Assembly: GCF_009914755.1 (NCBI RefSeq) | Contig: NC_060933.1 | Origin: the human T2T-CHM13v2.0 reference genome, Homo sapiens | Length of the DNA stretch: 64,000 nt | Direction: 5' to 3' (one strand) | Shown here: in pieces, positions 30,601-33,605 of the stretch | Layout of the letters: the number at the start of each line of letters is the position of its first letter | Numbering within the stretch: position 1 is the stretch's first letter | Made by a program: the position numbers and the translations under genes | The notes under the pieces: generated by a model | What the model was told of the DNA's origin: nothing | The model's database searches: none | Seen by the model: only the letters and a program-made list of their open reading frames with translations

Positions 30601-33268
30601 AAATCCGCATCTGAATCATCGGCATCTCCTGAATCTGCAGATAAGTATCTTATTTCGGAATCTTCAGCTGTTTCCACATTGTGTTCTTCATTTGCAGGTT
30701 CTAACCTAAGGGGTTAGAAAATTGGGTTGACTAACATTAACACATCACTTGACCTCATAACTTTAAAATTTTTCCTTCTTTTTTTTCGTGAGACAGAGGC
30801 TTGCTCTGTCGCCAGGCTGGAGTGCAATGGTGCGATCTCAGCTCACTGCAACTTCTGCCTCCCGGTTCAAGCGATTCTCCTGCCTCAGCCTCCAGAGTAG
30901 CTGGGACTACAGGTACGCGCCACCACGCCCGGCTAACTTTTGTATTTTTAGTAGAGACAGGGTTTCGCCATGTTGGCTAGGCTGGTCTCGAACTCCTGGC
31001 CTCAAGTGACTCACCCACCTTGGCCTCCCAAAGTGCTGGGATTACAGGCATGAGCCACCACGCCTGGCCTTAAACTTTTCTTAAAATGGCTCTCACTTAG
31101 GCTACTAGAATATTAAAGCAAGATGAGATCTTGGAGTTGACTCAGTCTGTGATTTTCAAACTTTTTACTGGAACTTGAATTACTTGGATATATCTCAGAG
31201 GGAGCCTAGAAGCTAAAAGTGCAGCCCTAAGCCCCATTTCCACTGGTTATTTGCTCAGACTATTTTTCAAAGGTAATTTGGGCTTTTATATTTTTCAAAG
31301 GTAATTTGGGCTTTTAAATTTACTCATAGATTTTCTAGGGCTGGAATAGTTCTTAGTGAAAATCGAATCTGTCTTATTTCACACATGAAGAAATTAAACT
31401 ACCTGCCAAGTTTACACAATTAAAGATGTACGATATTCTGTACAATGAGGGTCTACCTCTTGATGATTTTTGCCATTTAATATGTATGTGCTAAGGGTAG
31501 GCACGGTGGTTCACGCCTGTAATCCCAGCACTTTGGGAGGCTGAGGCAGGCGGATCACCTGAGGTCAGGAGTTCGAGACCAGCCTGACTAACAAGGACAA
31601 ACGTCGTCTCTACTAAAAATACAAAATTAGCCAGGCATGGTGCATGCCGGTAATCTCAGCTACTCGGGAGGCTGAGGCTGGGGAATCGCTTGAACCCGGG
31701 AAGTGGAGGGTGCGGTAAGCCGAGATTGCACCATTGCACTCCAGCCTGGACAATAAGAGCAAATCTCCATCTCAAAAATAAATAAATAAATAAATAAAAA
31801 TAAAATTAAAAATAAAAAAAAGTCTGTGCTAAATAAAGAGGTATCGGCAGAATCCATACGAAAGAAATATACCAGCAGCTGGAATACCACTCCCTCGTTA
31901 CCTTGGCGCCTCTTGCACGTGCTTGCTTGCCAAACAGGCCTGGGTTTTCTTTTGTCGGGGCCTAGATTTCACACCTTCTTCCATCATGGCGCCATCACCT
32001 TCTACTGAATCAAAGAGTGTGCTCTCAGAGTTCTTACTGGGCACTGAAAAATCATCACCAGACACTCGTGCCCTTTTGACAGACGTAAGCTTCCTTTTCT
32101 TAGACTTCTTCTTTGTACTGTTGGATTCCTTGAACCCTTTAAGAGCTGTACTGCCTTCCACAGTCCCAACCTCACTGCCCACCTGTGATCCTTCAGGGTA
32201 TGCACTCTCGAGGCTCTCAGGCATGGCCACTGCCTCAAATTCCTGGTGATTGGACTTTTTCTTTTTTTTCTTAGACTTGTTTTTATAAGCAGGTGCTGGT
32301 ATTCCTGCAGTTTCACCATGCAGGCCCACAGCAGGCCGGGATTCCTGCATATCAGCCCCAACCTCACTGCCCACTTGTGATCCTTCAGGCATGGCCAATG
32401 CCTCAAATTCCTGGTGATTGGACTTTTTCTTCTTTTTTTTCTTAGACTTTTTTTTGTGAGTAGGTCCTAGTAGTTGTGGAGTTTCATCATCCAAGCCCAC
32501 AGTAGGCTGGGATTCCTGCATATCAGTCCCGGCCTCTCTGCCTGCTTGCGATCCTTCAGGCATGGCCAGTGTCTCATATTCCCGGTTACTGGACTTTTTC
32601 TTTTTTTTCTTAGACTTGTTTTTATGAGCAGATGCTGGTAGTTCTGTAATTTCACCCCCTGGACCCACAGAAAGCCAGGACTCCTCCTGGTGGGATTCTG
32701 ACTGAGGCAGGGTGTCCCTTGCCCGCTGGCTCTCCCAGGATGCAGCTTTCCTCTGATGCTTTTTATTCTTTTTCTCCCTAACTTTACTGTGCAGGGCTTC
32801 TGATTTATGTGCATGTGACTTAGCAAGTACCTGAAATTTGTCTGTTTTAGGCTTTCTTGGTAACTTCTGTTCTATGCTCATATCAACACAAACAACATCA
32901 ACATCCTTTCTAAAATGCTTTGGTGTGTTGTTAATATTTTCTTTATCCACAAGGACAACTGTAACACCTGCTTCCTCGTCCACCTCCAAAGCACTATATC
33001 TTCTCTTTTTTCTCTTTTTGAGTGTGGAAGTGGCATTTGCAGTCTCATCACAGATTCTGGATTTTTTCAAAGGAGAAGAAATGAGATGCTGGAAATCTTT
33101 TTTCCTCTTTTTCCTCCTAGTTATTTGAGACTGTTCATTCACCAGGGAGGAGTCTCTGAAAATTTCGTGGGAATGTTTCTGAGGTCTTTCCTTATGTATA
33201 GAACACTTTTTCTTTTTCTTGTCAGAAACTGGAGTGTGGATTTCAAATCTGCTTGATTCTCCTTCCAT
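6381..33268 (-). CDS. TTF1: TTF1, RNA polymerase I transcription termination factor 1, spliced CDS of 905 aa over exons 2-11
   Basis: Begins [21 protein letters not shown]; Lys-rich N-terminus and Myb/SANT-like C-terminal half. Coding exon lengths 1367+224+186+79+131+235+90+66+86+254 = 2718 nt; all junctions GT-AG and in phase. Confidence 0.98.
7585..9248. repeat. VNTR in TTF1 intron 10; core unit GTGTGAGTGCATGTG with (GT)n, GCAT-duplication and A/G variants
   Basis: Directly visible tandem array of ~13-23 bp units; explains the His/Thr-rich ORFs in all three minus frames. Confidence 0.97.
9511..9596 (-). CDS. TTF1: TTF1 exon 10 ([28 protein letters not shown])
   Basis: ttttctaaag|TGAT ... 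CCAG|gttagt; 86 nt. Confidence 0.95.
12700..15000 (+). mobile_element. Old L1M fragments interrupted by an Alu cluster (~13102-13712)
   Basis: L1M 3'-end motifs (GACATTCTACAAAA, GGGACAACTGGTGAAATCTGAAT, ATCAATGTGAAACTTCCTG) and ORF2-like A-rich text at 14650-15000. Confidence 0.65.
15588..15785. mobile_element. MER5A-like element containing a 32-bp tandem duplication
   Basis: GAGTCACCTGG...CCCCACACCAGACCAAT...TTTTAAAAGTTCCCCAGATGATT motifs. Confidence 0.6.
17015..17080 (-). CDS. TTF1: TTF1 exon 9 ([22 protein letters not shown])
   Basis: cacag|GTTG ... TAGG|gtaag; 66 nt. Confidence 0.95.
18585..18674 (-). CDS. TTF1: TTF1 exon 8 ([30 protein letters not shown])
   Basis: tgtag|GACAG ... GAAAG|gtatga; 90 nt. 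Confidence 0.95.
21043..21277 (-). CDS. TTF1: TTF1 exon 7 ([18 protein letters not shown]...[20 protein letters not shown], Myb/SANT repeat)
   Basis: tacag|AAAGA ... AGTG|gtaagt; 235 nt; Myb-type Trp spacing. Confidence 0.96.
22523..22653 (-). CDS. TTF1: TTF1 exon 6 ([31 protein letters not shown]..., Myb-like repeat)
   Basis: cctag|GTAT ... AGTC|gtaagt; 131 nt. Confidence 0.96.
23270..23520. mobile_element. MER33/MER3-like DNA transposon fragment
   Basis: ACAGCACATCTCAAT.TGGACTA..TACATTTCAA.TG.TC motif. Confidence 0.65.
23704..24196 (+). mobile_element. MER9 (HERV-K9/HML-3) solo LTR, antisense in TTF1 intron 5
   Basis: TGTTGGGAGCAAGCCCCCC...GAGCTGGTCTCAGCA matches MER9 ends; 6-bp TSD AATACA/AACACA; AATAAA at 24041. 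Confidence 0.88.
24367..25660. mobile_element. Four-Alu cluster: two (-) then two (+), head-to-head
   Basis: 24367-24648(-), 24733-25028(-), 25059-25357(+), 25358-25660(+). Confidence 0.92.
26881..26959 (-). CDS. TTF1: TTF1 exon 5 ([26 protein letters not shown])
   Basis: tttag|GTAGG ... GCAG|gtaaga; 79 nt. Confidence 0.96.
28588..28773 (-). CDS. TTF1: TTF1 exon 4 ([10 protein letters not shown]...FRLHIG)
   Basis: ctag|GTGTC ... ATTG|gtaagt; 186 nt. Confidence 0.96.
30482..30705 (-). CDS. TTF1: TTF1 exon 3 (RLEPANEEH...KEFKAQG)
   Basis: cttag|GTTAGAA ... CAAG|gtgag; 224 nt; phase matches neighbours. Confidence 0.96.
31495..31820 (+). mobile_element. Alu ~80 nt from the TTF1 exon 2 donor (antisense in the pre-mRNA)
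   Basis: Full-length Alu with an (AAAT)n tail. Confidence 0.93.
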
Positions 33269-33275
33269 TTTATTC
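31902..33275 (-). CDS. TTF1: TTF1 exon 2 (7 nt 5'UTR, ATG at 33268, codons 1-456)
   Basis: Acceptor tatag|GAATAAAATG; donor CCAAG|gtaac; matches the 456-aa ORF at 31898..33268. Confidence 0.97.
32090..32700 (-). repeat. TTF1: Coding tandem repeat (~168-171 nt, ~57 aa) in TTF1 exon 2
   Basis: Anchor cttagactt recurs at 32099, 32270, 32441 and 32609; protein motif [27 protein letters not shown] repeats. Confidence 0.9.
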
Positions 33276-33309
33276 CTATATGGAAATGTGACAACAATGG
33301 TTTATTTTT

Positions 33310-33605
33310 GCTTTTTTTTTGAGACGGAGTCTCACTCTGTCGCCCAGGCTGGAGTGCAGTGGCGCGATCTCGGCTCACTGCAAGCTCCGCCTCCTGGGCT
33401 CATGCCATTTTCCCGCCTCAGCCTCCCGAATAGCTGGGACTACAGGCACCCACCAGCACGCCCAGCTAATTTTGTTTTTGTATTTTCAGTAGAGATGGGG
33501 TTTCACTGTGTTAGCCAGGATGGTCTCGATCTCCTGACCTCGTGATCCGCCCACTCCAGCCTCCCAAAGTGCTGGGATTACAGGCGTCAGCCACCGTGCC
33601 TGGCC
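33310..33605 (-). mobile_element. AluY-like element ~35 nt from the TTF1 exon 2 acceptor (sense in the pre-mRNA)
   Basis: GCAAGCTCCGCC and TTAGCCAGGATGGTCTCGATCTCC AluY diagnostics; TSD TATTTTTGC. Confidence 0.93.

What the first reader, a model, noticed from the sequence alone, without database searches (positions are those of the whole stretch)
31495..33605. TTF1 exon 2 is clasped by inverted Alus and would circularise into a stop-free (rolling-circle) ORF
Seen: exon 2 is 1374 nt (458 codons) and contains the ATG. Oppositely oriented full-length Alus lie ~35 nt from its acceptor and ~80 nt from its donor. Back-splicing would join ...CCA AG to G AAT AAA ATG (P-R-N-K-M), in frame with no stop anywhere on the circle. 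The acceptor's pyrimidine tract is short because the Alu A-tail abuts it. Established: flanking inverted Alus promote back-splicing and exon skipping; stop-free circles can undergo rolling-circle translation; the TTF-I N-terminus is a negative regulatory domain that masks DNA binding. Inference: this layout could yield a circle encoding concatemers of the Lys-rich N-terminal half and, separately, an exon-2-skipped mRNA whose first in-frame AUG is M516 (position 30527), giving a 390-aa Myb-domain protein without the inhibitory domain. That would be a primate-specific way to split an rDNA regulator.
Basis: partly seen in the sequence, partly recalled or inferred. Interest (0 to 1): 0.8.

Follow-up and report, generated by a model that had tools for sequence, protein, structure and literature searches.

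The report
Inverted Alus around TTF1 exon 2
The large start-codon exon of the human rDNA terminator gene TTF1 really is tightly flanked by two opposite Alu repeats and would make a stop-free circle, but this layout is common, and the only start-exon TTF1 circle in the catalogues I could search is a rare exon 2+3 circle that has a stop.

Summary
Exon 2 is 1374 nt (458 codons) and contains the ATG. A sense Alu ends 25 nt before the acceptor and an antisense Alu starts 81 nt after the donor. The circle has no stop in the TTF1 frame, and M516 heads a 390-aa ORF.

None of this is unusual.
- A stop-free frame follows almost automatically from a coding exon divisible by three; 14% of human circRNAs have one.
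- The nearest flanking Alus are inverted for 4 of 9 internal TTF1 exons.
- A second Alu in intron 2 competes for the antisense Alu and wins in the minimum-free-energy fold.

Of seven papers whose stored supplements I searched, one (ENCODE, 378 samples) lists TTF1 circles: exons 2+3 (value 43; 1598 nt, ORF stops after 575 aa) and exons 3+4 (value 4). No exon-2-only circle appears.

The exon-2-skipped mRNA would carry five out-of-frame upstream AUGs. Its product would lack the N-terminal repeats that give nucleolar localisation in mouse.

Verdict: a real, permissive but ordinary Alu-rich architecture. Rolling-circle translation and a functional split of TTF1 are unsupported, though not excluded.

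The parts
31902..33275 (-). TTF1 exon 2: 1374 nt, 458 codons, ATG at 33268-33266. Encodes residues 1-455 plus two bases of codon 456. Stop-free when read as a circle.
   Evidence: hub annotation
33276..33300 (-). The 25 nt between the Alu A-tail and exon 2, holding the whole polypyrimidine tract and acceptor AG. Longest pyrimidine run is 5 nt.
33297..33626 (-). Intron-1 Alu, sense in the pre-mRNA (body about 33606-33321, A-rich tail 33320-33301); upstream arm of the clasp.
31896..31901 (-). Exon 2 donor GTAACG; 4 of 6 matches to GTRAGT.
31495..31822 (+). Intron-2 Alu, antisense in the pre-mRNA. Its U-rich tail starts 81 nt after the donor; downstream arm of the clasp.
30755..31091 (-). Second intron-2 Alu, sense in the pre-mRNA, 403 nt from the antisense Alu; competing partner within the intron.
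   Evidence: (I1, I5, I8)
35321..35957 (-). Two further sense Alus in intron 1 (35321-35639 and 35640-35957); alternative partners across the exon.
36763..37091 (+). Antisense Alu in intron 1. It can sequester intron-1 sense Alus and overlaps alternative first exons 36722-37217/37268.
   Evidence: hub annotation
29011..29685 (.). Intron-3 Alu pair: sense 29011-29334, antisense 29339-29685. The antisense one pairs with intron-1 sense Alus (-456 to -512 kcal/mol), which fits the catalogued exon 2+3 circle.
30482..30705 (-). Exon 3: five out-of-frame AUGs (30691, 30679, 30625, 30619, 30610) before the M516 AUG at 30527. Its donor end is the back-splice donor of the catalogued circle.
32217..32656 (-). 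171-nt tandem repeat, 2.6 copies, inside exon 2. It encodes the Lys-rich repeats that Boutin et al. call likely nucleolar localisation motifs in human TTF1.

Best explanation
TTF1 exon 2 is a long exon included in the RefSeq-selected transcript (its constitutive use is assumed, not measured), with two comparatively weak splice sites, in an Alu-dense gene. Alu insertions happened to land very close to both of its splice sites in opposite orientation.

This makes the exon competent for Alu-bridged back-splicing. Several rival Alu pairings are about as stable: the two intron-2 Alus with each other, the intron-1 antisense Alu with the intron-1 sense Alus, and the intron-3 antisense Alu with the intron-1 sense Alus. 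Bridging therefore mostly leaves linear splicing intact. When back-splicing does occur, it mainly joins the exon 3 donor to the exon 2 acceptor.

The output is a rare, probably non-coding exon 2+3 circle and at most trace amounts of an exon-2-only circle. The stop-free frame of the exon-2 circle is an arithmetic by-product of a coding exon divisible by three. It is not evidence of a translated product.

Shown: the anatomy, the energies and the catalogue entries. Inferred: that the rival pairings explain which circle is made, and that the products have no function.
For: - Anatomy.
- Duplex energies: clasp pair -444.5 kcal/mol (260 bp, 1474 nt apart); within-intron-2 pair -440.6 (273 bp, 403 nt apart); intron-3 antisense Alu with intron-1 sense Alus -456.3, -485.6 and -511.7.
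- Fold of the 2872-nt pre-mRNA segment 33626->30755: the minimum-free-energy structure (-1068.3) pairs the two intron-2 Alus over 270 bp and shows no clasp. With one partner blocked, the totals are -1061.7 (within-intron pairing) and -1039.9 (clasp).
- Stagsted et al. 2019, Table S2 (ENCODE, 378 human samples) lists hg19 chr9:135275421-135278215 (value 43) and chr9:135273527-135275645 (value 4). With one offset, all four ends fall exactly on window exon boundaries 30482, 33275, 28588 and 30705. These are the exon 2+3 and exon 3+4 circles. The exon-2-only start (135276841/2) has 0 occurrences.
- TTF1 has 0 occurrences in the stored supplements of six other papers.
- A review states that pairing within an intron competes with pairing across introns, and that rival pairs give alternative back-splicing (passages).
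- Stagsted et al. report no indication of translation of start-codon circRNAs (abstract and passages).
Against: - Order of transcription favours the clasp. The intron-1 sense Alu and the intron-2 antisense Alu are both made before the competitor. With the competitor unavailable, the fold does form the 260-bp clasp.
- Both splice sites of exon 2 are the weakest or tied weakest in the gene. Weak acceptors are reported as prone to Alu loop-out skipping (abstract).
- The catalogues I could search are shallow and partly cut. Table S2 is cut at about 4.0 M characters, and one file was not searched. They are mostly not RNase R enriched. circBase, circAtlas, CIRCpedia and MiOncoCirc could not be queried, so an exon-2-only circle may well be recorded there.
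- Fan et al. 2022 argue that circRNA translation, including rolling-circle translation, is pervasive. Exon 2 contains 4 copies of AAGAAG, a hexamer they validated as IRES-like in another circle.
Confidence: 0.7

Rival explanations
1. The clasp drives an exon-2-only circle that ribosomes translate round and round into concatemers of the Lys-rich N-terminal half. In parallel it drives exon 2 skipping, giving a 390-aa Myb protein that starts at M516 and lacks the inhibitory domain. Together these split TTF1 in a primate-specific way.
For: - Stop-free circle, and a start codon with A at -3 and G at +4.
- A 260-bp clasp forms when the competitor is absent.
- Weak exon 2 splice sites.
- Myb domain downstream of M516.
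- The N-terminal domain is described as masking DNA binding (review passage).
- Rolling-circle translation has been shown for other circles with reporters.
Against: - No exon-2-only junction in the stored supplements of seven papers; the listed circle is exon 2+3, which has a stop.
- Five out-of-frame upstream AUGs and poor context at M516.
- The skipped product would lack the N-terminal repeats needed for nucleolar localisation in mouse.
- From recall, the central region needed for termination lies N-terminal to the Myb region, so the product may bind DNA without terminating.
- Exon 2 has two poly(A) tracks with at least 11 A in 12 nt. From recall, such tracks stall or frameshift ribosomes. 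The other two frames hold 50 and 9 stops per lap, so long concatemers are unlikely.
Confidence: 0.04
2. An exon-2-only circle is made at low but real levels in some tissues or states, for example when DHX9 or hnRNP C is low. It stays non-coding and is one more Alu-dependent by-product circle.
For: - Co-transcriptional order favours the clasp.
- DHX9 and hnRNP C are reported to repress Alu-driven circularisation (passages, abstract listing only).
- Alternative back-splicing from one acceptor is common, and the exon 2 acceptor is already used for the exon 2+3 circle.
Against: - Absent from the stored ENCODE table.
- Table S4 of the same paper lists the top 1000 circles in DHX9-depleted HEK293 cells. 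It was among the files searched and gave 0 TTF1 hits.
Confidence: 0.22
3. The main effect of the clasp is loop-out skipping of exon 2. The result is a non-productive mRNA without the start codon that lowers TTF1 output, probably degraded after upstream-ORF translation, rather than a new protein.
For: - Inverted Alu pairs are enriched around skippable exons, especially those with weak acceptors and short downstream introns. Intron 2 is 1196 nt, the shortest in the gene.
- The skipped mRNA has five short upstream ORFs of 7-13 codons.
Against: - Skippable exons tend to be short, and exon 2 is 1374 nt.
- TTF1 has 0 occurrences in the one stored supplement of that study. I did not see what that file lists.
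- No exon1-exon3 transcript is evident from the hub table, which would not show one anyway.
Confidence: 0.04

Closest known systems
circHIPK3 (exon 2 circle of HIPK3)
   Same: A single large second exon that contains the start codon, with inverted Alus in the flanking introns. Stagsted et al. describe it as both an AUG circRNA and a circle earlier characterised as Alu-dependent (passage).
   Different: circHIPK3 is the most highly expressed circle in ENCODE, has very long flanking introns with more than 60 Alus, and is insensitive to DHX9. The TTF1 introns are short (3960 and 1196 nt). The exon-2-only circle was not found in the catalogues searched.
AUG circRNAs as a class (Stagsted et al. 2019, PMC6487579)
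   Same: A circle that carries the host gene's annotated start codon and part of its ORF. The catalogued TTF1 exon 2+3 circle is listed there as an 'Ambiguous circRNA'.
   Different: That class is described as abundant, conserved and largely independent of Alus (abstract). The TTF1 case is rare (value 43 over 378 samples) and has Alus very close by.
Rolling-circle ORF circRNAs: circPSAP, circPFAS, circABHD12 (Fan et al. 2022, PMC9242994)
   Same: Length divisible by 3 with no stop in the host frame. Contains the AAGAAG hexamer that drove circPFAS translation.
   Different: Those have mass-spectrometry junction peptides and reporter evidence. TTF1 has 0 occurrences in their 4 stored supplement files. 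That absence says little, because the TTF1 junction gives no unique fully tryptic peptide (see full report).
Loop-out exon skipping by inverted Alus (Denisko et al. 2026, PMC13019027)
   Same: An inverted Alu pair across an exon with a weak acceptor and a short downstream intron.
   Different: Exon 2 is far longer than typical skippable exons, and no skipping of it is documented in anything I could read.

Membership tests
Alu-bridged exonic circRNA locus | Exon(s) bounded by canonical AG/GT splice sites usable for back-splicing | tested here: met
   Acceptor ...tatag|G and donor AAG|gtaacg.
Alu-bridged exonic circRNA locus | Long complementary inverted repeats in the two flanking introns | tested here: met
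   260 paired bases at -444.5 kcal/mol; inverted arms at 80-88% complementarity. A competitor in the same intron is equally good.
Alu-bridged exonic circRNA locus | Observed back-splice junction reads for the proposed circle (exon 2 alone) | tested here: not met
   0 occurrences of the exon-2-only coordinates in Stagsted Table S2 as stored, which is cut. TTF1 is absent from six other stored supplement sets. The exon 2+3 junction is present. The large online catalogues could not be queried.
Alu-bridged exonic circRNA locus | RNase R resistance and dependence on the flanking repeats | not testable with these tools
   Needs experiments or raw reads.
AUG circRNA | The circle includes the host gene's annotated start codon | tested here: met
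   ATG at 33268 lies inside exon 2. This holds for both the exon 2 and the exon 2+3 circles.
Rolling-circle ORF (rcORF) circRNA | No stop codon in one frame of the concatenated circle | tested here: met
   Exon-2 circle: 0 stops in 3 laps. The catalogued exon 2+3 circle does not qualify: 1598 nt, ORF of 575 aa with a stop.
Rolling-circle ORF (rcORF) circRNA | Evidence of translation across the junction (peptides or footprints) | tested here: inconclusive
   0 TTF1 entries in the Fan et al. supplements. However, the junction gives no unique fully tryptic peptide (derived).
Inverted-Alu loop-out skipped exon | Inverted Alu pair within 5 kb across the exon, with weak exon definition | tested here: met
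Inverted-Alu loop-out skipped exon | Documented exon skipping (exon1-exon3 junction) | not testable with these tools
   No junction tables were available. TTF1 has 0 occurrences in the stored supplement of Denisko et al., whose content I did not inspect.

The most novel reading that the evidence does not exclude
In some primate cell states, for example when DHX9 or hnRNP C is low, the co-transcriptionally formed clasp yields an exon-2-only circTTF1. This circle is translated from its strong-context AUG. The product, one or a few laps long, is a free copy of the Lys-rich N-terminal half, which carries the nucleolar localisation and ARF-binding repeats and the inhibitory domain. It would act in trans as a decoy for ARF or TIP5, or as an inhibitor of TTF1 DNA binding. 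That would give catarrhine primates an Alu-born modulator of rDNA regulation.
Probability: 0.04. Interest if true: 0.6.

Novelty: new member of a known kind. Interest (0 to 1): 0.2.

Why it matters
That would interest both the circRNA-translation field and the nucleolus field.

As it stands, the locus is one more Alu-flanked start-codon exon in an Alu-dense gene. Its practical value is as a compact test case with short introns and defined competitor Alus. It could be used to ask how pairing within an intron versus across an exon, and the order of transcription, decide between exon 2, exon 2+3 and linear products.

Tried and rejected
- Full-text searches for circTTF1 and variants, 'transcription termination factor 1' + circRNA (6 papers, none about a TTF1 circle judging by titles and abstracts), hsa_circ + TTF1 + chr9, hg19 coordinates, TTF1 + circRNAs + host gene + back-splice, and TTF1 + circRNA + RNA polymerase I (3 irrelevant papers). 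No paper on a circle from this gene was found in the library searched.
- Supplement searches with 0 TTF1 hits: Fan 2022 (4 files), Denisko 2026 (1 file), Guo 2014 (3 files), Maass 2017 (3 files), Zhang P 2020 (1 file), Zhang XO 2016 (6 files searched, file 1 not searched).
- The supplements of PMC13134581 (hnRNP C and Alu circularisation) could not be read, so whether TTF1 circles respond to hnRNP C stays open.
- The original domain-mapping papers, Evers 1995 and Sander 1996, are not held. Domain statements rest on a review passage, Boutin 2019 and recall.
- Earlier findings of this scan were not open to the session.
- Rfam hits to mir-1268, mir-3135, mir-1972 and MIR2646 are all below the gathering score and lie inside Alus. 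I rejected them as Alu-derived look-alikes.
- Two Pfam hits in exon 2 (DUF6139, Yae1_N) are far below their cut-offs and were rejected.
- Not attempted: Alu subfamily assignment with a library (none available), comparison with other primate or mouse genomes (none held), and MaxEnt-type splice scores (no model available).
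Full report
**Observation**

On the minus strand, exon 2 of TTF1 runs from 33275 to 31902. It is 1374 nt, or 458 codons. The acceptor reads ...ccattgttgtcacatttccatatag|GAATAAAATGG and the donor GCGCCAAG|gtaacg. 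The ATG lies at 33268-33266 and has A at -3 and G at +4.

Reading the exon as a circle gives 0 stops in three laps in the ATG frame, against 150 and 27 in the other two frames. The junction reads ...[16 protein letters not shown].

An Alu that is sense in the pre-mRNA occupies 33626-33297. Its A-rich tail ends 25 nt before the exon. An Alu that is antisense in the pre-mRNA occupies 31822-31495. Its U-rich tail begins 81 nt after the exon. Three results identify them as Alus:
- paired sub-threshold matches to the 7SL model, one per Alu monomer;
- inverted-repeat arms of 65-112 nt at 80-88% complementarity;
- BLAST against the other Alus of the window.

Its longest pyrimidine run is 5 nt, the shortest of the gene's 10 acceptors, and its pyrimidine count of 14 of 20 ties for lowest. 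The donor matches 4 of 6 consensus positions, tied lowest.

The exon1-exon3 mRNA has its first TTF1-frame AUG at 30527 (M516) and a 390-aa ORF. All stated facts are therefore confirmed.

**Is it more than chance?**

The stop-free frame is not. Any coding exon whose length is divisible by three gives one, provided the few leader codons hold no stop. Fan et al. 2022 report that 14% of human circRNAs have a host-frame rolling-circle ORF (passages read).

Inverted flanking Alus are also routine here. Alu-like sequence makes up 7466 of 31273 nt of the gene, in 25 merged intervals of which 19 are sense and 6 antisense. For 4 of 9 internal exons (2, 3, 4 and 5) the nearest flanking Alus are inverted.

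What stands out is only the closeness. Exon 2 has the tightest pair in the gene. Denisko et al. 2026 note that Alus are depleted within about 100 bp of exon boundaries (section read).

Intron 2 holds a second Alu at 30755-31091. It is sense in the pre-mRNA and lies only 403 nt from the antisense Alu (pairs I1, I5, I8). Intron 1 holds two more sense Alus (35321-35639 and 35640-35957) and one antisense Alu (36763-37091). Intron 3 holds an adjacent sense/antisense pair (29011-29334 and 29339-29685).

Duplex energies:

| Pair | Energy (kcal/mol) | Paired bases | Separation |
|---|---|---|---|
| Clasp (intron-2 antisense with nearest intron-1 sense) | -444.5 | 260 | 1474 nt |
| The two intron-2 Alus | -440.6 | 273 | 403 nt |
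| Intron-3 antisense with intron-1 sense Alus | -456.3, -485.6, -511.7 | 259-280 | 3611-5954 nt |
| Intron-1 antisense with intron-1 sense Alus | -514.2 to -567.8 | 276-290 | 805-3136 nt |

I folded the 2872-nt pre-mRNA segment from the intron-1 Alu to the competitor. The minimum-free-energy structure (-1068.3 kcal/mol) pairs the two intron-2 Alus over 270 bp and shows no clasp.

Blocking the competitor gives the 260-bp clasp, for a total of -1039.9. Blocking the intron-1 Alu gives -1061.7. At equilibrium the competitor therefore wins by about 22-28 kcal/mol. Kinetically the clasp can form first, because the competitor is transcribed last.

A review states that pairing within an intron favours linear splicing and competes with pairing across introns. 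It also states that rival pairs give alternative back-splicing (passages read).

**Catalogue evidence**

No paper in the searched library names a circle from this gene.

Of seven papers whose stored supplements I searched for TTF1, one has entries. This is Stagsted et al. 2019, Table S2, built from 378 ENCODE human samples. It keeps circles called by two programs with at least two reads in a sample. It lists two TTF1 circles:
- hg19 chr9:135275421-135278215, value 43, 'Ambiguous circRNA';
- hg19 chr9:135273527-135275645, value 4.

I take the values to be back-splice read totals, but I did not see the column header. With a single offset (135278215 = window 33275) the other three ends fall exactly on exon boundaries 30482, 30705 and 28588. 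These are therefore the exon 2+3 and exon 3+4 circles.

The exon-2-only start (135276841 or 135276842) has 0 occurrences. That table is cut at about 4.0 M characters as stored, so absence is not proof.

The other six supplement sets gave 0 TTF1 hits: Fan 2022, Denisko 2026, Guo 2014, Maass 2017, Zhang P 2020 and Zhang XO 2016 (one file of the last was not searched). The supplements of the hnRNP C study could not be read.

The exon 2+3 circle is 1598 nt and not divisible by three. From the annotated ATG it encodes 575 aa, namely TTF1 residues 1-530 plus a 45-aa out-of-frame tail, and then stops. The stronger pairing of the intron-3 antisense Alu with the intron-1 sense Alus fits this being the main product. 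That link is my inference.

**The skipped mRNA**

In an exon1-exon3 mRNA the M516 AUG is the sixth AUG. Five out-of-frame AUGs precede it, at 30691, 30679, 30625, 30619 and 30610. They open ORFs of 7 to 13 codons that all end before it. Its own context is poor, with C at -3 and T at +4. Translation would need leaky scanning or reinitiation.

Pfam places a Myb domain in exon 6 (33.1 bits against a cut-off of 22.9). It finds nothing above cut-off in exon 2. The 390-aa ORF does therefore carry the Myb region.

Boutin et al. 2019 map the nucleolar localisation signals and ARF-binding sites of mouse TTF1 to its N-terminal repeats (passages read). They find that truncations to residue 211 or 471 are not nucleolar. 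They point to three partial repeats with likely signals in human TTF1. These correspond to the 171-nt, 2.6-copy tandem repeat at 32217-32656 in exon 2.

A review describes a central domain needed for termination, lying between the inhibitory N-terminus and the DNA-binding C-terminus. From recall, a mouse truncation of about the same remaining length binds DNA but does not terminate. I could not check this because the original papers are not held.

The proposed short protein would thus probably be poorly made, poorly targeted and perhaps inactive in termination.

**Translation of the circle**

There is no direct evidence either way. Points in favour:
- the strong start context;
- four copies of AAGAAG, a hexamer that Fan et al. 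validated as IRES-like in circPFAS.

Points against:
- Stagsted et al. found no sign of translation of start-codon circles.
- Exon 2 holds two poly(A) tracks with at least 11 A in 12 nt. From recall, such tracks stall or shift ribosomes. A shift would meet 50 or 9 stops per lap.

The back-splice codon AGG encodes the same arginine as the linear exon 2-exon 3 junction: the linear protein reads ...HVQEAPR|LEP... and the circle ...[16 protein letters not shown]. Trypsin therefore yields no unique, detectable junction peptite-sized fragment. This makes the 0 hits in Fan et al.'s proteome-based tables uninformative. Another protease is needed.

**Primate specificity**

Alus are primate-specific, as is established knowledge and as stated in the abstract listed. 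By recalled diagnostic stretches, the upstream Alu looks like a younger AluY type and the downstream one like an AluS type. I had no library to test this and no other genomes to compare.

**Verdict**

The locus is a new, unremarkable member of the known class of Alu-flanked start-codon exons. Its documented circular output is a rare exon 2+3 circle with a finite ORF. The bold parts of the hypothesis, rolling-circle translation and a functional short TTF1, remain untested and are made less likely by the competitor Alus, the upstream AUGs and the loss of the localisation repeats.

Noticed in passing
window 6201-6436 (- strand), overlapping the CDS end at 6381-6436: An Alu-like segment, sense in the mRNA, lies inside the last exon and covers the last 56 nt of the coding region. 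The C-terminal ~18 residues (...[19 protein letters not shown]), the stop codon and part of the 3' UTR of human TTF1 appear to be Alu-derived, so the C-terminus would be primate-specific.
   Followed up: partly
window 32217-32656 (- strand, inside exon 2): A 171-nt tandem repeat with 2.6 copies and 83% matches. [quoted passage not shown]
   Followed up: partly
window 36722-37268 against the Alu at 36763-37091: The alternative first exons in the hub table (36722-37217 and 36722-37268) run straight through an Alu that is antisense to TTF1. Some TTF1 transcripts would therefore carry a whole exonised Alu in the 5' UTR, and in those transcripts that Alu is not intronic.
   Followed up: no
window 28588-30705: A second catalogued TTF1 circle, exons 3+4 (410 nt, value 4), matches the inverted pair formed by the intron-2 sense Alu (30755-31091) and an antisense Alu-like segment at 28157-28449.
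   Followed up: partly
window 29499-29550, 30884-30935, 33417-33468, 35447-35498, 36901-36952 and others: Sub-threshold Rfam matches to mir-1268, mir-3135, mir-1972 and MIR2646 all lie inside Alus. They look like Alu-derived resemblances, not separate miRNA genes.
   Followed up: no
window 31771-31822 (- strand reading): The antisense Alu's roughly 50-nt U/A-rich tract followed by ...tttttgag|atggag resembles the acceptor-like sites at which antisense Alus are exonised (recalled). No Alu exon is annotated here.
   Followed up: no
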